Source: a virus
Taxonomy: Duplodnaviria; Heunggongvirae; Uroviricota; Caudoviricetes
Direction: 5' to 3' (one strand)
IMG/VR virus record: IMGVR_UViG_2734482571_000001
DNA length: 7,936 nt
Part shown: piece by piece, positions 1 to 7,936 of the stretch
Numbering within the stretch: the stretch's first letter is position 1
How the letters are laid out: the number at the start of each line of letters is the position of its first letter
Notes under the pieces: generated by a model
The model's database searches: none
Told to the model about the DNA's origin: nothing
The model's input: only the letters and a program-made list of their open reading frames with translations
Translations under genes and position numbers: made by a program

Positions 1-35
1 GAACAGGAGGGACAGCTGATAGAAACAGAAGCCAC
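1..35 (-). CDS. insA: IS1 InsA, 5' partial (first 11 codons; continues beyond the window)
   Basis: GTG start at 35..33 on the minus strand; translation (M)ASVSISCPSC matches the InsA N-terminus from memory. Too short to appear in the ORF track. Confidence 0.75.
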   Translation of the reverse strand, partial: MASVSISCPSC

Positions 36-90
36 TGGAGCACCTCAAAAACACCATCATACACTAAATCAGTAAGTTGGCAGCATCACC
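1..90 (-). mobile_element. IS1 end, partial element running off the left edge (terminal inverted repeat about 68..90)
   Basis: Reverse complement of 1..90 reads GGTGATGCTGCCAACTTACTGATTTAGTGTATGATGG...GTGGCTTCTGTTTCTATCAGCTGTCCCTCCTGTTC, which matches the IS1 terminus and insA start as I recall them. The element boundary is at base 90, 15 bp beyond the stop (106..108) of the adjacent head gene. Confidence 0.85.
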
Positions 91-105
91 TCATTCGTCT
101 GTTCC

Positions 106-612
106 TTAAATCTTCCAGGAAATTTCTGCATTGCCGTCAGCATCACCGGCACCTGTGAATTCAGCGTTGGTCAGCACCACGTTTTTGCCACTGACTGACG
201 TGGACATGAATCCACCCAGCGGCACTTTGATGGATTCATCAGTGGAGACGACAACGTATACCGGATCGCCTTTTTTGATAGTGCTGGCATCAAAATCAGA
301 ACCGAGATTAACGGTCACGTAGCCACGCTTCATGGCGTCGCCCGGGAAGTTCTTGCCTGTTCCCACCTGGCGAACCATGTCCGGCTGCGACGTGGTCGGA
401 TAAGGGCGCACGTAGATCCCCTTCACCTTGTCTGCGGTATCACCATCTGCCAGCGGCACGAAAAAACCGTCATCATCGTATTTACCAGCCAGGCCATAGG
501 CAGCGAAGGCGTTATCGGATTTAAGGACCACCGGTTCGACGGTTAAGTCCTGCGGGCGAGAGACAGCCCCGGCAATGCCAACAGGCATCCGGTACAGAAA
601 TACATTATTCAT
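106..612 (-). CDS. Small phage head protein (168 aa), possibly decoration or capsid-associated; family not assigned
   Basis: Intact ORF with ATG at 612..610, tightly coupled to the upstream gene (minus strand reads TAA AAA ATG); TAA stop at 108..106. Sits where a head module places its decoration or capsid-adjacent gene. Function is inferred from position only. Confidence 0.7.
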   Translation of the reverse strand: MNNVFLYRMPVGIAGAVSRPQDLTVEPVVLKSDNAFAAYGLAGKYDDDGFFVPLADGDTADKVKGIYVRPYPTTSQPDMVRQVGTGKNFPGDAMKRGYVTVNLGSDFDASTIKKGDPVYVVVSTDESIKVPLGGFMSTSVSGKNVVLTNAEFTGAGDADGNAEISWKI

Positions 613-615
613 TTT

Positions 616-1836
616 TTACCCTTTACGGTTTGCCCAGAATTCAGCGTTTTGTTTGTTCAGGGAAGCGATACTGGTCATGCCCATGTTTAGGCGCTGTGCA
701 TCGCCGGTGGTGGCGCGGGTGTTTCGCCCTTTGGCAACCTCAGACACGGCATTAAACGCCATGTCGACCGATTGTTTCGGTAATTTGCGGATATCCGCAT
801 CACCGACTATCTGGCGAACCAGCGTTTTGTCAGCAGAAGCCAGAACCTCGCGTTTGAACGCGGTCGGTTTCATCTTACGGCTCAGATCGATACCCGGAAC
901 GATAACTTCGGCACGCCAGGCTGAGTCACCAGTAATCGTGGTTTCCTCTTCATCGTCCTCGCCGTCACCGGTCGGATTATCGTCAGGCTTATTATCGTTA
1001 TCGCCCGTGGCATTTCTTTCCAGCTTAGCCAGCAGGGCTTTCAGTAATGTTTTGAGGTCATCATCACTGTCGCCGGTTGGATCTCCGCCCATCTCTGGTG
1101 CTTTGTCCGGTAGTGGTTGCTGCGGGGACAGGTTGATGTTGAGATTAACGCCCTGCGGCAAATCCCCCTCATCTCCTGTAACCGATGCGGGAGCCGACTC
1201 CACCAGTTCGTTCATGGTGTCGGCATCTCCTGTCTTGATGGCCGCACGCATGCGGTTCCACCAGTTTTTCTTTTGATTTGCCATTGTGTCTCTGTCTCCA
1301 ATTGCACAACGATTTCCGGCTCTGCCTTTAGGGACAAGAGCCACATGGTTTCCGGTAATATCGACCTGCTCGGCTTTACCTGGCTCGGTCTGCTCGTACT
1401 CCGCGTCATAGCCGCACGACACTTCGCGCAGGCCATCTTCGATAAGCTGAATGGCGCTTTCGTCTTTGACGATAAGGTCAGCCAGCATCAAATCAGACTG
1501 CTCACCCGTCCCGCGCCGGACATTCTGGAGGTGCCCGACAGCAAGCTCTTTCCAGTTCTCGGGATTTACCAGCCGCACATTCCCGTTTTCATCTTCAGGA
1601 TGCAGGATCGTGATGCTCATCCCTTCGAATGAGGCAAGCGTGGCCGGATGGAATACCTGCTCAGGAGAACGCGTGACGACTATTTCACCGAACTTATCGG
1701 GTTTCAGTTTTGGCAGGTCATCAGCACCATAGAGCTGCTTACCTGTTCGTCCTATCGGCACGTCTTTGCACAGCAACGAGCCGTCAGCCAGGCGGTATCG
1801 GGTTTCCCCGAGCCTGGTCTCAAAAAAGTATTTCAT
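616..1836 (-). CDS. Head scaffolding / capsid-assembly protein candidate (406 aa), possibly DUF2213-like
   Basis: Intact ORF with ATG at 1836..1834, 3 nt after the MuF-like stop (TAA CCC ATG). Contains a long acidic low-complexity segment (DNDNKPDDNPTGDGEDDEEETT) as often seen in scaffold proteins. Position between the MuF-like gene and the small head protein gene supports a head-assembly role. The DUF2213 label is from memory and unverified. Confidence 0.75.
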   Translation of the reverse strand: MKYFFETRLGETRYRLADGSLLCKDVPIGRTGKQLYGADDLPKLKPDKFGEIVVTRSPEQVFHPATLASFEGMSITILHPEDENGNVRLVNPENWKELAVGHLQNVRRGTGEQSDLMLADLIVKDESAIQLIEDGLREVSCGYDAEYEQTEPGKAEQVDITGNHVALVPKGRAGNRCAIGDRDTMANQKKNWWNRMRAAIKTGDADTMNELVESAPASVTGDEGDLPQGVNLNINLSPQQPLPDKAPEMGGDPTGDSDDDLKTLLKALLAKLERNATGDNDNKPDDNPTGDGEDDEEETTITGDSAWRAEVIVPGIDLSRKMKPTAFKREVLASADKTLVRQIVGDADIRKLPKQSVDMAFNAVSEVAKGRNTRATTGDAQRLNMGMTSIASLNKQNAEFWANRKG

Positions 1837-1839
1837 GGG

Positions 1840-2622
1840 TTATGCTGCCCTTTTCATTGCGAATGGAACGCGAACAAACACGATCTCTTTATAGCAGCGG
1901 CAGTTTGGCAGCTCGCCCGCGTGGCCGGTCATGCCGTCCAAAGTTGGAGGTGAATCCCAGCGGACGAATTTACCTTTCATGTGATCGTGGGAATCTCGGA
2001 CATCGCCATCATCGGCTGTACGCCAAATATAACCATCCGAGCCAATAGCTATCGCTCGGGCCATATCCAGCGCGCCCGTTGCTCTTCCCAGTTCCGTTCG
2101 GGCAATCAGATCGGCCCTAGACTTAGCAACATCGCCGGTAGATGCAATCTCTTTAGCAAACTGCTCCGCCCGACCACCGGTGACAACAGCCTCTATCGCT
2201 TTGTTCTGGATGTCGTACACCCTGTCTGCGGCCTCGAGAGGCAGAGATTTGATGTACTTGACCTGTTCGGCGATGATGGATTGCATCACCTGGCCCACAG
2301 GAGCGCTTTCCACAAGATTGCGGAGCTCGCGACTGATGTTCTTGCTGTGTTGCCGCCAAACTTTCTCGTTCTGCCGGGTTAGGTCCGCAGTAAAGTTTTC
2401 CGCGACCTTTGTCGCCCAGGGGGTGATGATTTCACTGTAACGCTCCAGCGCCGCAATAATTTCCGTGATACTGTCATTTGAACCATCGTAGCGACCATTT
2501 ACGATGTCTCCGACCGCCCTCGCTATCCTGCGTAGGCTGGTTCGATACCGGATTTCCGCCTGACGGCTCCTGCGGTTCGTCATCAGGTTCGCCGATGCCG
2601 GGCGGCGCTTCATCTTCGGCAT
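1840..2622 (-). CDS. Head morphogenesis protein, Mu F-like / SPP1 gp7 family (260 aa)
   Basis: C-terminal region RTADDGDVRDSHDHMKGKF...GELPNCRC has the hallmark R-x-SH...NCRC signature of MuF-type minor head proteins, and the gene lies directly after the portal as in SPP1-like modules. ATG at 2622 has a GAGGA Shine-Dalgarno-like sequence about 11 nt upstream. Overlaps the portal 3' end by 149 nt in another frame, so the true start is uncertain. Confidence 0.85.
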   Translation of the reverse strand: MPKMKRRPASANLMTNRRSRQAEIRYRTSLRRIARAVGDIVNGRYDGSNDSITEIIAALERYSEIITPWATKVAENFTADLTRQNEKVWRQHSKNISRELRNLVESAPVGQVMQSIIAEQVKYIKSLPLEAADRVYDIQNKAIEAVVTGGRAEQFAKEIASTGDVAKSRADLIARTELGRATGALDMARAIAIGSDGYIWRTADDGDVRDSHDHMKGKFVRWDSPPTLDGMTGHAGELPNCRCYKEIVFVRVPFAMKRAA

Positions 2623-3556
2623 TCTCGATGTCCTCGTCGGTAATGGATGCCCCGATGCCGGTTACGTCAGAATTTTCTCGCAAATCAGTCATAGCGGCTT
2701 TCAGTGTCATCAGACCATCACCCAGCGCCGTACTGATTGCGTTGGTGGTGTTTAACGCCACCGTTGAGCGATCGACATCAGACATTTGCCAGAGCGGGTT
2801 AAACTCAAACGTGAAATCGTCCGGCAGCGGCTTGCCAAGTTCCGAACGATGCATGATGTCCAGTATCCGCCGCACCGGAAGACGTAAACGCCTCTCCTGC
2901 AACGAACTGATGCGATCGTAATAGTTGGCAAGGTCTGCATCACCGGTAGAAAATCCTTTCGGGGACTGTCCGAACAACCGCACCAGTGGGATACCAACAG
3001 CGCCACTAATCTGTTCTACAAACTGCGAAAGGATGTCATCCAGACCACTGAAGCTGTACTGATGGGTTTCAAACTTATCCCGCGAGTCCATGAGCGTCAT
3101 GCCTTCATTACTCTGGAACTGTCGAATCAGGTCGATATTCTTCAGCAACGCTTCATACGCAGGACCACCAAGTGCGATAAGCTCGCGTAGCTTCTCCACG
3201 CTGTAGGTACGCAAATGCGCCTTGTAGACCAGCTGCGCCGCGCCGACAGTAGCGCTGTCGAACGCGGTAAGACGATCCCAGATACGCTCTACAACCGACA
3301 TTCCCCATTCGTTCTCGGTCATCTTCTGCTGAAATGGCAACGTGACGCCATCAAAGCGAATCAGGCGACTGTGATGAATGCGCCAGGCAGGAATTCCCGT
3401 TGCTGTGGTCACCACATCGTAAAACTCAGGTTTACCCAGGTCCGGCCCCATATCTTTAATGCGGCGGGTCAGTGCCGGGTCGACCATCCAGCGGTCGAGC
3501 GGGAGAATCCCCTTAAACTTGCCCTTACCGATGGTTTCGGGTCGCAGCGGGGTCAT
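2474..3556 (-). CDS. Portal protein, SPP1 gp6-like; longest uninterrupted ORF (C-terminal 360 codons of a 489-codon frame)
   Basis: Lies between large terminase and the MuF-like gene, with an acidic disordered C-terminal tail (EDEAPPGIGEPDDEPQEP) typical of portals. The ATG at 3556 has a GAGGGG Shine-Dalgarno-like sequence 9 nt upstream. The same frame continues upstream to 3940 but contains two TAG codons (see next feature). Confidence 0.75.
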   Translation of the reverse strand: MTPLRPETIGKGKFKGILPLDRWMVDPALTRRIKDMGPDLGKPEFYDVVTTATGIPAWRIHHSRLIRFDGVTLPFQQKMTENEWGMSVVERIWDRLTAFDSATVGAAQLVYKAHLRTYSVEKLRELIALGGPAYEALLKNIDLIRQFQSNEGMTLMDSRDKFETHQYSFSGLDDILSQFVEQISGAVGIPLVRLFGQSPKGFSTGDADLANYYDRISSLQERRLRLPVRRILDIMHRSELGKPLPDDFTFEFNPLWQMSDVDRSTVALNTTNAISTALGDGLMTLKAAMTDLRENSDVTGIGASITDEDIENAEDEAPPGIGEPDDEPQEPSGGNPVSNQPTQDSEGGRRHRKWSLRWFK

Positions 3557-3940
3557 TGGTGCCTACCCCTCAATCATGATGAAACCCACCGCGCCGCCGT
3601 AGAGGCGCGACCATTTCAGCACGTCATTCAGCGCATCCCAGATTTGCAACTCATCCAGTTGTGATTCGAGAATGCCACGATCTTTTGCATCAATTTCCGA
3701 AGTGATGCGAATGCCTTTGCGGGTCATATCATCCGGGATAGCATCGACTGCTTCGCCGATGATCTAGGATGAACGATAGGACCATTCCACCAGCATGCGG
3801 TTACGACTGGTGAAATTAGCCCGGTAGGTGGATGCTGAGTGCTGGTTAGGTGTCTGCATCCCTACGCGGGCAATAAAATTCTCATAACCATCAGCTGTGG
3901 CCTGCACAGTTCGCCGCAGGGCTTGTTTGTTTCGTGCCAT
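3557..3940 (-). pseudogene. Portal gene 5' region interrupted by two in-frame TAG (amber) codons
   Basis: The minus-strand frame starts at ATG 3940..3938, overlapping the large-terminase stop (TGATG). It translates as MARNKQALRRTVQATADGYENFIARVGMQTPNQHSASTYRANFTSRNRMLVEWSYRSS-TAG-IIGEAVDAIPDDMTRKGIRITSEIDAKDRGILESQLDELQIWDALNDVLKWSRLYGGAVGFIMIEG-TAG-AP-MTPL... The TAG codons are at 3766..3764 and 3565..3563, both in frame with the downstream 360-codon ORF. Confidence 0.7.
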
Positions 3941-5343
3941 CAGGCCTGTCTCCCCAGCTGTTCCCAGATATCCAGCGATGTATCGATTGGCGCGAAGGCC
4001 ATAATGAATGCATCAGCAACGTTTGGTGACGGTATCTCGCGTTTTGCGAGGTCTTTTTTACTTTCGACCATCACACGTCCGTTACGGTCGAAATCACGAT
4101 GAGGTGTTGTCAGTTCCAGTTTCAGCTTTTCAAGCAACGGACAACGAGAATCTATGCTGATCAGCTCATCCACAGGATACTGTTCTCCGTTGTTAATGGC
4201 GTTAAACGTATTTCTGAAACGGTCAGCCACCAGCCACCATGCCTGAGCCTTAAGATTTGCGAAAAAGTCTTTGTTGGGGATGCCGTTGTACTCGTCATCT
4301 GGCTCATGCACACCAGCACCGGCGTTAAACCTCTGGTAATTCACACGTCGCGCGTATGCGTTCTCGCTCTTCCGGTCAGCGTTAATTTCAGAGAATTTAG
4401 CACCGGCAGACGCACCAACACCGATAGAGTCGTAAACAATATCTGCTTCACGCTCCAGCGCCGCCTGATAAGTACGCTGGCAGCTCTTCAGTAATTCATC
4501 TTCTTTGGCCTTCCATTCGTCGGCCCAGAAAACAACGGATCCGTGACGGTAAACGTTAGCGCACTTATCTGTACCACTGTCAGCCACGTCAAAGCCAATA
4601 CGCTTTCTTCCACTGGGTTCGAAATTTAACGTTTTGTGCGCATCCACTGCGGCTTCTATCCAAGACAGTTTGATGATTGCCGCATCATCATCAGACTCCG
4701 GAACGCCCTCATACACATGTTTAAAACCATCCGGATCACGGCGTCGCGCCGCGTCGATAACCTTAAGCATGGTGTCAGACAGAAACGGATTTTCGTCATA
4801 GTTAATTTTGCGGATGAGAGTGCCTTCGGGCGGATCAACAACGAAGTTGCGCCAGACGAAATCAGTAACAAGTCCGGGGTTGAATATGAACCAGCATTCC
4901 GAACCCTCTTTACGGATCGTTGGCTCCAGAATTTTCCACTGGTATTCCGTCAGTGCGTGGGCTTCTTCCAGCCACAACACATCGATCCCCTCCAGTGACT
5001 TAATTTCTTCGATGTTGCGCCATAATCCATAAAAAACAAATTCCGAGCCAGTAACCCGGTTAATGATTTTGTTGTTCAGAATACGGAAACGGTGCCGCAG
5101 ACCAAACCTGTCTATCTGAATTTTGAGCAGGGTATACACCGACTCTTCGATTTTATTCTGGATCTGACGGGCACAACAAAAACGCAGGGTGTATTTATTC
5201 GACAGAAATATGGCAATGCCAGCGGCATCCCATGATTTTGACGATGACCGACCACCATAAAGCACTTTGTTACGTGCCCGCATAGTCCAGAAACTACGTA
5301 AAGCCGGATTCAGCGTCGGTTTGGATGTCAGAGTAGAAGTCAT
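3940..5343 (-). CDS. Terminase large subunit, PBSX / Terminase_3-type
   Basis: Walker A-like motif KVLYGGRSSSKSWD near the N-terminus and conserved ATPase/nuclease-type body; TGA stop at 3942..3940. The ORF is open up to 5451, but the first 36 codons look non-protein-like; I chose the ATG at 5343 (MTSTLTSKPTLNPAL..., GGAG upstream). In-frame starts at 5361, 5382 or 5451 cannot be excluded. Confidence 0.85.
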   Translation of the reverse strand: MTSTLTSKPTLNPALRSFWTMRARNKVLYGGRSSSKSWDAAGIAIFLSNKYTLRFCCARQIQNKIEESVYTLLKIQIDRFGLRHRFRILNNKIINRVTGSEFVFYGLWRNIEEIKSLEGIDVLWLEEAHALTEYQWKILEPTIRKEGSECWFIFNPGLVTDFVWRNFVVDPPEGTLIRKINYDENPFLSDTMLKVIDAARRRDPDGFKHVYEGVPESDDDAAIIKLSWIEAAVDAHKTLNFEPSGRKRIGFDVADSGTDKCANVYRHGSVVFWADEWKAKEDELLKSCQRTYQAALEREADIVYDSIGVGASAGAKFSEINADRKSENAYARRVNYQRFNAGAGVHEPDDEYNGIPNKDFFANLKAQAWWLVADRFRNTFNAINNGEQYPVDELISIDSRCPLLEKLKLELTTPHRDFDRNGRVMVESKKDLAKREIPSPNVADAFIMAFAPIDTSLDIWEQLGRQA

Positions 5344-6058
5344 TGAGGTCACGCTCTCCATTGCCATCATCAATACCTGCATCACGGCGAAGACGATCAG
5401 CCTCCAGAGACACCTTATCAGTGGCGGCCTTGCGGTAGGCTGTATCAGCAAATATTTTTCCTACCGTCGCAAGCGTGCCAACGATGGACTCAATACGAAC
5501 TGTATTGCGCATCATTGCTTTCTCGGCGGCGCTGATATTTTCAATCAGCATCTTCCTTTCCTGGTCCCCATTAGCATCTTCCAGCGACACCAACCACCGA
5601 CCAATATTCTCTGCAGCGACAAGGTTGTTAGCACGAAGGCGAAATAATTCGTCCTCGAGCGTCAACGCTTTAGCGTCCTCTATCACCTCATCTTTGAGCA
5701 GAAGGCGACGGGCATAACCACCGTGTTTTAATGCCTGCTGGTTACCGGGTTGGAATGGGTTAGTCGGGGGATCGGTACGCATTCCGCGTATCGGTTTCGT
5801 ATCCGGTGTAGATTCTGTTTTTAGTTGCGTACTTTTTTGTGTAAGGCCAGTAATGGCAGGCTTTCTGCTGGTACGCACTTTCCTTTTTTGCGTACCATTT
5901 TTGCAAACCTGCGTACCGCCACTGCGTGCCCAACCAAGCTTTTTGGCCCTCTTCCTGATAGCCCCTTCTGTAACGCCGTATTTCTCGCCTATATCACGGA
6001 GGCTAAGGACTCCGGCCCGGTATGCCGATTCGATGGCCTCCCAGTCCGGTTTTGCCAT
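5294..6058 (-). CDS. Terminase small subunit with N-terminal helix-turn-helix (254 aa)
   Basis: N-terminal HTH-like segment (YRAGVLSLRDIGEKYGVTEGAIRKRAKKLGW) and the PGNQQALKHGGYARR motif typical of phage small terminases. ATG at 6058 with AGGAAG 9 nt upstream; TAG stop at 5296..5294. Lies immediately upstream of the large terminase on the same strand. Confidence 0.8.
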   Translation of the reverse strand: MAKPDWEAIESAYRAGVLSLRDIGEKYGVTEGAIRKRAKKLGWARSGGTQVCKNGTQKRKVRTSRKPAITGLTQKSTQLKTESTPDTKPIRGMRTDPPTNPFQPGNQQALKHGGYARRLLLKDEVIEDAKALTLEDELFRLRANNLVAAENIGRWLVSLEDANGDQERKMLIENISAAEKAMMRNTVRIESIVGTLATVGKIFADTAYRKAATDKVSLEADRLRRDAGIDDGNGERDLNDFYSDIQTDAESGFT

Positions 6059-6255
6059 GATTATGCTTCCTGTGATTTACTGTTATCGCTGCCTGTCACA
6101 ATAGGTTGCTTTAATTCTTCCTCATCACTCACTCCTGCGACGCTCCGTGGCAGGGCCCCCCACAGGAGTACCTTGTAAATGTAAGGTGTTTAAGCCTAAA
6201 TTAAGTCGTATCACGGTTAAATAGCAAAGAAAAATTCACAGAAGGAAAGACATTG

Positions 6256-6765
6256 ATGGAGTGGATAAATGCTTTGATGAACTATTTTGTACTTCATCCA
6301 TATCGCCTATGGGGGCTTCTTTTTATAATAGCGTTCACAAAATCCACTTTACTCATTTCGGCGATATTGCCACCAGCATCAATTATGATGGCCACTGTAA
6401 TTACAGTCAGCAAGACGACTCTTTCACCATGGGAAGCTGGAATCACGGTCATGAGTGGCGCATGGTGCGGTACTATCGTTAATTACCATCTTGGTATAAT
6501 AATTGGGCATATCCCTCAACTTGCATGTATAATATCAAGCCGTTCCAATACAATAGAACGGGTTCGCCTTCAGTTGCAAAATAACTCTGTGTCAATACTT
6601 TTCACTTCGCGCTTTATCGCCGTGCTGCGTTATATTGCTCCTTTGGTGGCAGGAATGTTGCAACTTCATCCAGTGAAAGTGTATACAGTGAGTCTGATTT
6701 CAGCTGCTAGCTGGTCAGCACTTTATGTTGGTAGTTTTAGCTTCGTGTTGCCTTTTTTTAGCTAA
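6256..6765 (+). CDS. DedA/YqaA-like (VTT / SNARE-associated domain) inner-membrane protein, moron gene (169 aa)
   Basis: Only convincing plus-strand gene in the window. ATG at 6256 is preceded by GAAGGAAAG (AGGA 9 nt upstream); the ORF track starts it at a TTG at 6253. Multiple hydrophobic segments. The motif SRFIAVLRYIAPLVAGM matches the DedA-family signature RF-I-P-x-LR-x-x-x-P-x-x-AG, and GAWCGTIVNYHLGIIIG resembles the glycine-rich DedA motif. Visibly AT-rich compared with the flanking phage genes. Confidence 0.75.
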   Translation: MEWINALMNYFVLHPYRLWGLLFIIAFTKSTLLISAILPPASIMMATVITVSKTTLSPWEAGITVMSGAWCGTIVNYHLGIIIGHIPQLACIISSRSNTIERVRLQLQNNSVSILFTSRFIAVLRYIAPLVAGMLQLHPVKVYTVSLISAASWSALYVGSFSFVLPFFS

Positions 6766-6853
6766 ACTGCCCATAAAAAGCTCTTGCGAATCCAGCTTCC
6801 CCCATTCCTCTGACAACAGAATCTGATTTGAAGGATAATGAGTAAAATTACCG

Positions 6854-7324
6854 CTACCCCCCAAGGCATTGGATCCTGATGTACTCCTGAAGCATTCTCA
6901 ATGCTGTCTGGTCGCTGATGATTCCGTCCCGGATACCGAGAACGTTTCGTCCAGCAACTGGAGAGAGTTCGACGGTGGCATCATTGCCCATGCCGGAGGC
7001 GCTGGAGGTTTCGGCTGAGGATGGCACAGGGCATTTTCCTTTGACGAGCACCCGACCACCATTATCAAGCTTGCGCCGAAGAGCATCATTTTCAGCTTTC
7101 GCATCAGCTAACTCCTTCGTGTATTTAGCATCGAGTGCATCAGCATCACGCTGGCGCTGCTGCATGTCAGTAATGGTTGCGTTCGCCAGCTTCAGTTCTC
7201 TTGCGTTTTTGTCGCGCTGCTCTTTGTAGGTAATGGCGTTATCACGGTAATGATTAACAGCCCATGACAGGCAGACGATGATGCAGATAACCAGAGCGGA
7301 GATAATCGCGGTGACTCTGCTCAT
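6854..7324 (-). CDS. Rz: Rz i-spanin (inner-membrane spanin subunit)
   Basis: Translation from ATG 7324..7322 ([34 protein letters not shown]...[13 protein letters not shown]) is near-identical over about 85 residues to lambda Rz as I recall it, with a C-terminal Cys. TAG stop at 6856..6854. The start overlaps the endolysin stop (ATGA). The ORF track extends to a GTG at 7336. Confidence 0.9.
6898..7104 (-). CDS. Rz1: Rz1 o-spanin (outer-membrane lipoprotein), embedded in Rz in the +1 frame
   Basis: 68-codon ORF entirely inside Rz in another frame; lipobox-like MVVGC followed by the proline-rich [11 protein letters not shown], the hallmark of Rz1. ATG at 7104..7102. Confidence 0.8.
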
Positions 7325-7431
7325 TGCTGCCCCCACAAACAGACTTCACGCTCAATCTCACGACGGGTCATCAGCCCTTTCCATTGCTTACCGCCAGCAT
7401 ATGTCCAGCGACGTAGCTGATCACATGCGCC
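7321..7431 (-). pseudogene. Endolysin (phage 21 R / RrrD-like SAR lysozyme) 3' fragment
   Basis: The minus-strand frame ending at TGA 7323..7321 translates as ...[36 protein letters not shown], matching the C-terminus of lambdoid GH24 SAR endolysins as I recall them. The frame has stops just upstream (7461..7459, 7476..7474), and homology ends at about 7431 where IS21-like sequence begins. Confidence 0.7.
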
Positions 7432-7615
7432 TGGCAGAGAATGTCTGGAATAGCGAGGTTATCTTCGCGGAGATTAAGGCAATGGGTTATACGGGCGGAC
7501 GTTCCATGCTGCGTTACTACATCCAGCCCAAACGTAAAATGCGTCCGTCAAAAAGAACAGTTCGCTTCGAAACTCAGCCTGGATACCAGCTCCAGCATGA
7601 CTGGGGCGAAGTTGA
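7425..7615 (+). mobile_element. istA: IS21-family transposase istA internal fragment (5'-truncated; 3' side runs into the N gap)
   Basis: Plus-strand translation [63 protein letters not shown] carries the IstA motifs GY-x-GG and RFET-x-PG-x-Q-x-Q-x-DWG (compare IS100 IstA). The N-terminal HTH part of IstA and any IS terminal repeat are absent, so the copy is truncated at its left side. Confidence 0.7.
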
Positions 7616-7762
7616 NNNNNNNNNNNNNNNNNNNNNNNNNNNNNNNNNNNNNNNNNNNNNNNNNNNNNNNNNNNNNNNNNNNNNNNNNNNNNNNNNNNNN
7701 NNNNNNNNNNNNNNNNNNNNNNNNNNNNNNNNNNNNNNNNNNNNNNNNNNNNNNNNNNNNNN
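7616..7762. other. Assembly gap or masked region (147 N)
   Basis: Uninterrupted run of n characters; the true length and content are unknown. It probably hides the rest of the IS21-family element and/or the middle of the endolysin gene. Confidence 0.95.
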
Positions 7763-7828: not shown

Positions 7829-7882
7829 TATTCACCTCTCGCAGCCTTACTAGACTGGCCCCCTGAATCTCCAGACAACCAG

Positions 7883-7902
7883 TATCACTTAAATAAGTGA
7901 TA
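7883..7902. promoter_or_regulatory. Operator-like palindrome TATCACTTA-AA-TAAGTGATA upstream of the endolysin start
   Basis: Perfect 9-bp inverted repeat with a 2-bp centre, 55 to 74 nt upstream of the endolysin ATG (7828). The TATCAC half-site resembles lambdoid repressor operator half-sites. No binding protein can be assigned from sequence alone. Confidence 0.3.
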
Positions 7903-7936
7903 GTCTTAATACTAGTTTTTAGACTAGTCATTGGAG

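What the first reader, a model, noticed from the sequence alone, without database searches (positions are those of the whole stretch)
3563..3766. Portal gene carries two in-frame TAG codons in an otherwise intact 489-codon frame
The portal frame from 3940 to 2474 is open except for TAG codons at 3766..3764 (after ...WSYRSS) and 3565..3563 (after ...FIMIEG). Both could be single transitions from CAG or TGG. The second is followed 2 codons later by an ATG (3556) with a GAGGGG Shine-Dalgarno-like sequence 9 nt upstream, so an N-terminally truncated 360-aa product could still be made. TAG is also the real stop of the small terminase (5296..5294), so this is not a recoded genome. Alternatives: genuine nonsense mutations in a decaying prophage (favoured, given the IS insertions nearby), a phage propagated in an amber-suppressor host, or sequencing errors.
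Basis: seen in the sequence. Interest (0 to 1): 0.6.

Follow-up and report, generated by a model that had tools for sequence, protein, structure and literature searches.

The report
Dead prophage portal gene in Shigella
The two in-frame TAG codons are real point mutations that killed the portal (head-entry) gene of a broken-down, insertion-sequence-riddled prophage carried by Shigella sonnei, which is ordinary gene decay.

Summary
The minus-strand frame 3940..2474 is a 488-codon phage portal gene (Pfam PF06381, E=3e-106). Its only internal stops are TAG at codon 59 (3766..3764) and TAG at codon 126 (3565..3563). The nearest intact copies are E. coli prophages at 99.8% identity. They differ in this gene at three bases: TGG(W59)->TAG, CAG(Q126)->TAG and A308V. 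More distant E. coli prophages and the phages SEN34 and Omnitron also have W and Q, with a full-length N-terminus.

The exact fragment ORFs (58, 54 and 360 aa) are each on at least 1000 public contigs named Shigella sonnei, including ten long NCBI assembly contigs (4.8-5.0 Mb). This rules out sequencing error. The prophage is a remnant. IS1 replaces the major capsid gene from about codon 2, IS2 sits in the holin gene, and host genes follow the IS1. Contigs with only Q126* exist, which gives the likely order A308V, then Q126*, then W59*.

TAG is the true stop of two neighbouring genes, and no suppressor tRNA lies within 21 kb. Two ambers among seven lineage-specific SNPs is only mildly unusual (P about 0.03, post hoc). 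Verdict: an ordinary Shigella pseudogene, low interest.

The parts
2474..3940 (-). Portal pseudogene: 488 codons plus a TGA stop, of the PF06381 Phage_portal_3 / TIGR01555 HI1409 family
   Evidence: The translation is. It is 99.8% identical to intact genes in E. coli.
3764..3766 (-). Amber codon 59, derived from TGG (Trp)
   Evidence: The window has T at 3765 on the + strand; L001-L004, L020-L023 and all other relatives have C. Trp is conserved in SEN34, Omnitron and the Pam3 portal 8hds.
3563..3565 (-). Amber codon 126, derived from CAG (Gln)
   Evidence: The window has A at 3565 on the + strand; L001-L004, L023 and S. dysenteriae Sd197 have G. Gln is conserved in SEN34, Omnitron and Pam3. 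This mutation occurs alone in contigs L020-L022.
3018..3018 (-). Missense A308V (GCA->GTA), the third and only other lineage-specific change in the portal gene
   Evidence: It is also present in contig L023, whose portal is otherwise intact.
3554..3571 (-). GAGGGG (3571..3566) plus ATG (3556..3554, Met129), the start of the 360-aa ORF that gene callers annotate
   Evidence: The same bases are coding sequence in intact relatives. The 360-aa ORF is deposited as Q3Z426_SHISS, among others.
1..90 (.). End of IS1, which abuts the start codon of the major capsid gene and replaces the rest of that gene
   Evidence: It matches IS1 copies at 100%. Homology to the prophage starts at window 91, equivalent to L003 3001, where the capsid gene begins at 3004. 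In S. sonnei genomes, host genes follow this IS1.
3940..5343 (-). Large terminase gene, intact, sharing its stop/start overlap with the portal gene
   Evidence: Pfam Terminase_3 E=3.9e-38. It has no internal stops.
5294..6058 (-). Small terminase gene, intact, ending in a genuine TAG
   Evidence: phrog_370 'terminase small subunit' E=7.5e-95. The TAG stop is shown.
7851..7936 (.). End of an IS2 inserted in the 3' end of the holin gene
   Evidence: It matches the IS2 end in L001. S. sonnei loci show the IS2 transposase genes between the holin and lysozyme genes.

Best explanation
The window is the head-packaging end of a defective SEN34-like (Brunovirus-type) prophage remnant in Shigella sonnei. 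Its portal gene was inactivated by two independent G:C->A:T transitions that created amber codons, CAG->TAG at Gln126 and TGG->TAG at Trp59. A missense change, A308V, also arose in this lineage. Contigs carrying intermediate states suggest the order A308V, then Q126*, then W59*. The mutations are fixed in S. sonnei. Translation stops after 58 residues, so no functional dodecameric portal can be made. The element also lacks its major capsid gene and everything downstream of it at this locus, through an IS1-associated deletion, and it carries IS2 in the holin gene. The second amber was therefore effectively neutral. Both stops being TAG follows from the G:C->A:T mutation bias together with the commonness of CAG and TGG codons. 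What is shown: the derived state, the fixation, and the IS damage. What is inferred: neutrality, the order of events, and the absence of any product.
For: - **Derived state.** The portal differs from the closest intact copies (L001, L003, L004) at only 3 bases, and two of these create TAG from TGG and CAG. All six other relatives checked have W59 and Q126, including the isolated phages SEN34 and Omnitron. The solved Pam3 portal does too.
- **Fixation.** The exact 360-, 58- and 54-aa fragment ORFs are each on at least 1000 contigs named S. sonnei. The 360-aa ORF is listed in 2576 index blocks and lies on ten long NCBI assembly contigs of 4.8-5.0 Mb. Seven of these were compared base by base. 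They are identical to the window over 91..7272, apart from one extra SNP at 5318 in L013.
- **IS damage.** IS1 replaces the capsid gene, and host genes (lactonase, a LysR regulator, aconitase) follow it. No capsid or neck homology is found in the 21-kb loci. IS2 sits in the holin gene.
- **Intermediates.** L020-L022 carry Q126* only, and L020 still has an intact capsid gene. L023 has an intact portal with V308.
- **Independent decay of the same prophage family.** In S. dysenteriae Sd197, IS1 breaks the portal at codon 103. In FDAARGOS_943, IS2 interrupts TerL and the MuF-like gene has an internal stop. Three contigs carry a 7-bp deletion in TerL.
- **Mutation spectrum.** Six of 7 lineage-specific SNPs are G:C->A:T. 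About 5.0% of such changes in these genes give a stop, and 57% of those stops are TAG.
- **Background.** Shigella reference genomes carry at least 199 pseudogenes, at least 5% of CDS (PMC7373316).
Against: - Two nonsense changes among 7 lineage-specific SNPs, both in one gene while the other seven genes in the window stay intact, is more than the neutral expectation. P is about 0.03 for at least 2 of 6, and about 0.011 for at least 2 of 3 within the portal. This is a post-hoc statistic on a finding that was selected for being odd.
- Contig L020 shows that Q126* arose while the capsid gene was still present. The first amber may therefore have been a primary inactivating event rather than late neutral decay.
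- I did not show that the capsid and tail genes are absent from the rest of the S. sonnei genome.
- I did not scan the whole genome for suppressor tRNAs.
Confidence: 0.92

Rival explanations
1. The TAGs are sequencing or assembly errors in this particular record.
For: The window does hold an assembly oddity elsewhere: a run of 147 N and a stray IS21 fragment at 7413..7762.
Against: Exactly the same fragment ORFs are on at least 1000 public contigs. They include ten long NCBI assembly contigs (4.8-5.0 Mb) from different projects, and UniProt entries from Ss046. Seven genomes compared base by base are identical to the window across the portal gene.
Confidence: 0.005
2. The ambers are read through by a suppressor tRNA, as in a phage propagated in a supE/supF-type host, or by programmed read-through, so a full-length portal is still made.
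For: Both stops are the same codon, TAG. Relatives of this prophage carry a tRNA array upstream of the lysis genes.
Against: - No tRNA is in the window. The only tRNA left in the 21-kb S. sonnei loci has a CAT anticodon, and the relatives' arrays have none with CUA.
- TAG terminates 2 of the 8 genes in the window.
- Orthologs have sense codons, not conserved TAGs, so nothing is programmed.
- The element has lost its capsid gene at this locus, so a portal would have nothing to assemble with.
- Near-cognate read-through of two successive stops would be negligible. This last point is an inference from general knowledge.
Confidence: 0.01
3. The 360-aa N-terminally truncated portal (Met129-Lys488) is expressed from the internal GAGGGG-ATG and is kept for a host-beneficial role, for example poisoning the portal assembly of related superinfecting phages.
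For: An SD-like GAGGGG lies 9 nt upstream of the ATG. The ORF is intact and identical in seven S. sonnei genomes compared base by base, and it still matches Pfam positions 84-355 of 357.
Against: - The SD-ATG is ancestral coding sequence in all intact relatives, so it did not evolve as a start.
- S. sonnei is a young clone, so the identity says nothing about selection.
- The portal's lineage-specific changes are 3 non-synonymous and 0 synonymous.
- IS insertions lie between the late-gene regulatory region and these genes.
- In S. dysenteriae the same ORF exists only because IS1 cut the gene.
Confidence: 0.03
4. Loss of the portal was positively selected, for example because leaky portal expression was toxic or triggered a portal-sensing immune protein. 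This would explain why both nonsense mutations fell in this one gene.
For: There is a mild statistical excess (P about 0.01-0.03). Q126* arose while the capsid gene was still present. The portal and terminase genes of this prophage family are hit independently in several lineages.
Against: - A second stop upstream of an already dead gene cannot be selected for loss of function.
- The statistic is post hoc, taken from one gene of a genome with hundreds of pseudogenes.
- Independent hits elsewhere are by IS insertion and replication slippage in various genes, as expected for neutral decay.
- No sensor gene was identified.
Confidence: 0.03

Closest known systems
Pseudogenes of cryptic prophages in Shigella (genome degradation by IS elements, nonsense mutations and frameshifts)
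   Same: Derived nonsense mutations are fixed in a host-restricted clone, within a prophage that is also cut by IS1 and IS2. The fragments are already deposited as separate 'putative bacteriophage proteins' of S. sonnei Ss046 and 53G. The general phenomenon is described in PMC7373316.
   Different: Nothing substantive. The only peculiarity is two ambers in one gene while its seven neighbours in the window remain intact.
Portal protein of Salmonella phage SEN34 (Brunovirus) and E. coli prophages and phages such as vB_EcoM-606R2
   Same: The gene is the same length, 488 aa. It is 85% (SEN34) to 98% (vB_EcoM-606R2) identical at the DNA level, and SEN34 is 91% identical at the protein level to the closest intact E. 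coli copy. The gene order is the same: TerS-TerL-portal-MuF-like-DUF2213-cement-capsid.
   Different: Those copies are intact, with W59 and Q126. The window copy has TAG at both positions and has lost the capsid gene.
Solved PF06381-type portals: cyanophage Pam3 portal (8hds) and Pseudomonas phage E217 gp19 (8fvh)
   Same: There is significant sequence similarity over residues 15-413 (E=2.2e-37 to Pam3). Trp59 and Gln126 align to Trp and Gln in Pam3.
   Different: They are distant relatives. No structure was predicted or compared here.
Laboratory amber mutants of phage head genes grown on suppressor hosts
   Same: These are TAG codons made by G:C->A:T transitions at Gln and Trp codons in an essential head gene.
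   Different: This is a natural, clone-wide chromosomal remnant. It has no capsid gene at the locus and no suppressor tRNA nearby.

Membership tests
PF06381 Phage_portal_3 / TIGR01555 HI1409-family portal protein | Profile match above the curated cut-off | tested here: met
   The repaired protein scores Pfam 355.4 bits against a cut-off of 33.8, and TIGR01555 255.1 bits against 196.25. It matches phrog_146 'portal protein' at E=1.4e-174.
PF06381 Phage_portal_3 / TIGR01555 HI1409-family portal protein | Gene lies immediately downstream of the large terminase and upstream of the head-morphogenesis and capsid genes | tested here: met
   The TerL stop overlaps the portal start at 3940, and the MuF-like gene follows.
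PF06381 Phage_portal_3 / TIGR01555 HI1409-family portal protein | Intact reading frame able to give a full-length subunit | tested here: not met
   There are two internal TAG codons, at 59 and 126. It is a pseudogene of this family.
   PF06381 is the only Pfam family hit at E<=0.001. The PDB sequence hits at E<=0.01 are the Pam3 and E217 portals and other chains labelled only 'portal', and none is named SPP1. A shared portal fold is expected but was not tested.
Fixed nonsense pseudogene in a decaying prophage | The stop codons are derived relative to intact orthologs | tested here: met
   TGG and CAG are present in all relatives.
Fixed nonsense pseudogene in a decaying prophage | The same lesions appear in independent assemblies of the lineage | tested here: met
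   Each fragment ORF is on at least 1000 contigs, and the 360-aa ORF lies on ten long NCBI assembly contigs of 4.8-5.0 Mb.
Fixed nonsense pseudogene in a decaying prophage | Other, independent disabling lesions in the same element | tested here: met
   IS1 replaces the capsid gene and IS2 sits in the holin gene.
Stop-codon reassignment or programmed read-through | TAG is avoided as a terminator and conserved in-frame in orthologs | tested here: not met
   TAG ends 2 of 8 genes in the window. Orthologs have TGG and CAG at the two positions.
Suppressor-dependent amber mutant | A tRNA with a CUA anticodon in the host or element | tested here: inconclusive
   There is none in the window, in the 21-kb S. 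sonnei loci, or in the relatives' tRNA arrays. The whole genome could not be scanned with these tools.

The most novel reading that the evidence does not exclude
The most novel reading not excluded is that the first amber (Q126*) was not neutral. In this reading it was selected in the ancestor of S. sonnei while the prophage still had its capsid gene, either to silence a harmful portal or to produce the 360-aa C-terminal fragment. That fragment would then persist as a dominant-negative 'portal poison' against related superinfecting phages.
Probability: 0.03. Interest if true: 0.55.

Novelty: already known. Interest (0 to 1): 0.07.

Why it matters
It matters little beyond annotation. The three ORFs that databases list as separate 'bacteriophage proteins' of S. 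sonnei (58, 54 and 360 aa) are pieces of one dead portal gene. At least one PHROG family (phrog_28295) appears to coincide with such a piece. The locus is a tidy small example of stepwise prophage decay in a young pathogen clone, with intermediate stages still findable in public reads. It could serve as a lineage marker.

Tried and rejected
- **S. dysenteriae check.** I tested whether the 360-aa ORF of S. dysenteriae Sd197 shares the Q126 amber. It does not. Codon 126 there is CAG, and the ORF arises because IS1 cuts the portal at codon 103.
- **Suppressor tRNAs.** None was found in the window, in four S. sonnei loci, or in two E. coli relatives.
- **Species-representative genomes.** An exact 38-mer spanning the second TAG gave no hit, so the source genome was not identified that way.
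- **Capsid gene elsewhere in S. sonnei.** The cluster look-up named S. flexneri, E. coli and 'Shigella' but not S. sonnei explicitly, so this is inconclusive.
- **Contigs with only the first TAG.** An exact 417-aa ORF from Met72 is not in the collection.
- **Literature.** I found no paper on this specific pseudogene, only general Shigella gene-decay papers.
- **Recoding and sequencing error.** Both were considered and rejected; see the rival explanations.

Full report
**Observation.** I read the minus strand of 2400..4000 and translated 3940..2474. The frame has 488 sense-or-stop codons and a terminal TGA. There are exactly two internal stops, both TAG. One is at 3766..3764 (codon 59, after WSYRSS) and the other at 3565..3563 (codon 126, after FIMIEG). 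The ATG at 3556..3554 and the GAGGGG at 3571..3566 are as described, and they open the 360-aa ORF 2474..3556.

**What the gene is.** With the two stops repaired, the protein matches Pfam PF06381 Phage_portal_3 (E=3.3e-106), TIGR01555 'HI1409 family' (E=1.1e-75) and PHROG 146 'portal protein' (E=1.4e-174). Its nearest solved relatives are the portals of cyanophage Pam3 (8hds, E=2.2e-37) and Pseudomonas phage E217 (8fvh).

The neighbours are the expected ones (and the annotation):
- small terminase, 5294..6058 (phrog_370);
- large terminase, 3940..5343;
- a MuF-like head-morphogenesis gene, 1840..2583;
- a DUF2213 / head-maturation-protease-like gene, 616..1836;
- a cement protein gene, 106..612.

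**Where it comes from.** The exact 360-aa, 58-aa and 54-aa ORFs are each on at least 1000 public contigs, and the sources name them Shigella sonnei (for example Q3Z426_SHISS from Ss046, and HE616528 from 53G). The 360-aa ORF is indexed in 2576 blocks of the collection. Seven S. sonnei genomes compared base by base are identical to the window from 91 to 7272, apart from one extra SNP at 5318 in L013. The TAGs are therefore a fixed feature of the species, not a sequencing error.

**Polarity of the changes.** The closest intact copies are prophages in E. coli FDAARGOS_943, FDAARGOS_944 and VL40, at 99.8% identity. Within the portal gene the window differs from them at just three bases:
- + strand C->T at 3765, giving TGG(Trp59)->TAG;
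- + strand G->A at 3565, giving CAG(Gln126)->TAG;
- + strand G->A at 3018, giving Ala308Val.

More distant E. coli prophages (L002, L005) and the phages SEN34 and Omnitron also have Trp59, Gln126 and a near-identical N-terminal 130 residues. The same residues align in the Pam3 portal. The GAGGGG-ATG is simply the ancestral Ile-Glu-Gly...Met129 coding sequence.

**State of the prophage.**
- Window 1..90 is the end of an IS1. Homology to the prophage begins about four bases into the major capsid gene.
- In S. sonnei genomes that IS1 is followed by host genes (lactonase, a LysR regulator, aconitase family, pectinesterase). No capsid or neck homology is present in the 21-kb loci.
- An IS2 end lies at 7851..7936, in the 3' end of the holin gene.
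- Further IS elements lie upstream.

This is a remnant that cannot build heads from this locus. The other seven genes in the window are still open.

**Order of events.** Exact look-ups of hypothetical intermediates found three Logan contigs (L020-L022) that carry Q126* but still have Trp59. They also found one contig (L023) with an intact portal carrying Val308. L020 still has an intact capsid gene, and L021 has an uninterrupted holin-lysozyme pair. The likely order is A308V, then Q126*, then W59* together with the IS1 and IS2 events. The first amber thus predates the IS1 deletion. The second fell in an already dead gene.

A 7-bp frameshift deletion in TerL removes one unit of a perfect tandem TGGTGGC TGGTGGC (window 4233..4246). 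It is present in L020, L021 and L023 but not in L022 or S. sonnei. Its distribution conflicts with a single tree, which suggests recurrent slippage or recombination.

**Is two ambers remarkable?** Across 91..7432 the S. sonnei lineage has seven private SNPs: two nonsense, two missense and three synonymous. Six of the seven are G:C->A:T. In these genes 182 of 3662 possible G:C->A:T changes (5.0%) create a stop, and 57% of those stops are TAG, because CAG and TGG are common codons. The chance of at least two nonsense changes among six such SNPs is about 0.03. For at least two of the three portal SNPs it is about 0.011. That is mildly unusual. However, it is a post-hoc statistic for one gene in a genome of a kind that carries at least 199 pseudogenes (PMC7373316). 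Once Q126* existed, W59* was neutral.

The same prophage family has been disabled independently elsewhere. In S. dysenteriae Sd197, IS1 breaks the portal at codon 103. In FDAARGOS_943, IS2 interrupts TerL and the MuF-like gene has an internal stop.

**Rivals.**
- Suppression or recoding is very unlikely. TAG terminates two of the eight genes here. There is no tRNA in the window, and no CUA-anticodon tRNA in the S. sonnei loci or in the relatives' tRNA arrays. Orthologs carry sense codons.
- A functional 360-aa truncated product, or positive selection for portal loss, cannot be excluded. Neither has positive support (see the rival explanations).

**Verdict.** This is an ordinary, already-deposited pseudogene in a decaying Shigella sonnei prophage. 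Interest is low.

Noticed in passing
window 7413-7762: An internal fragment of the IS21 istA gene (7413-7615, 99.5% to plasmid IS21 copies) is followed by a run of 147 N (7616-7762). Together they replace about 340 bp of the middle of the phage lysozyme gene. That gene is called as an intact 165-aa ORF in all ten S. sonnei loci retrieved. This looks like an assembly, scaffolding or masking artefact, or a strain-specific event.
   Followed up: partly
window 4233-4246 (- strand), in the large terminase gene: There is a perfect tandem 7-mer, TGGTGGC TGGTGGC. One unit is deleted (a frameshift) in Logan contigs L020, L021 and L023, but not in L022 or S. sonnei. Taken together with Q126*, this distribution fails the four-gamete test, which implies recurrent slippage or recombination.
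   Followed up: partly
L016 (S. dysenteriae Sd197) 7908-8001; L001 (E. coli FDAARGOS_943) 3867-8706: The same prophage family has been inactivated independently. In Sd197, IS1 breaks the portal at codon 103, and the DUF2213 and cement genes are split. In FDAARGOS_943, IS2 interrupts TerL and the head-morphogenesis gene has an internal stop.
   Followed up: yes
window 6253-6765 (+): A DedA / VTT-domain membrane protein gene with a TTG start lies on the opposite strand between the lysis cassette and the terminase genes. It looks like a moron (an accessory gene inserted in a prophage). It is present in S. sonnei and its closest E. coli relatives but absent from the prophages in L002 and L005.
   Followed up: no
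window 3563-3727 (-), the 54-aa ORF between the two ambers: PHROG family phrog_28295 has 54 positions that match exactly residues 72-125 of the portal. It appears to be a family built from this pseudogene fragment. phrog_12751 likewise covers only residues 203-488.
   Followed up: no
protein clusters: NCBI names some fragments of this portal family 'anti-CBASS protein Acb1 family protein'. Pfam, PHROGs and the solved structures all identify the protein as a portal. This is probably an annotation carry-over.
   Followed up: no
window 2474-2583: As annotated in relatives (247 aa), the MuF-like head-morphogenesis gene overlaps the 3' end of the portal gene by 110 nt in another frame. Other gene callers start it later, giving 152 aa.
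   Followed up: no
L009/L011/L013 about 2320-2394; L003 11623-11933: Relatives carry a four-tRNA array upstream of the holin gene. In three S. sonnei loci (L009, L011, L013) only the first tRNA (anticodon CAT) survives, immediately next to an IS, and L006 has none.
   Followed up: partly
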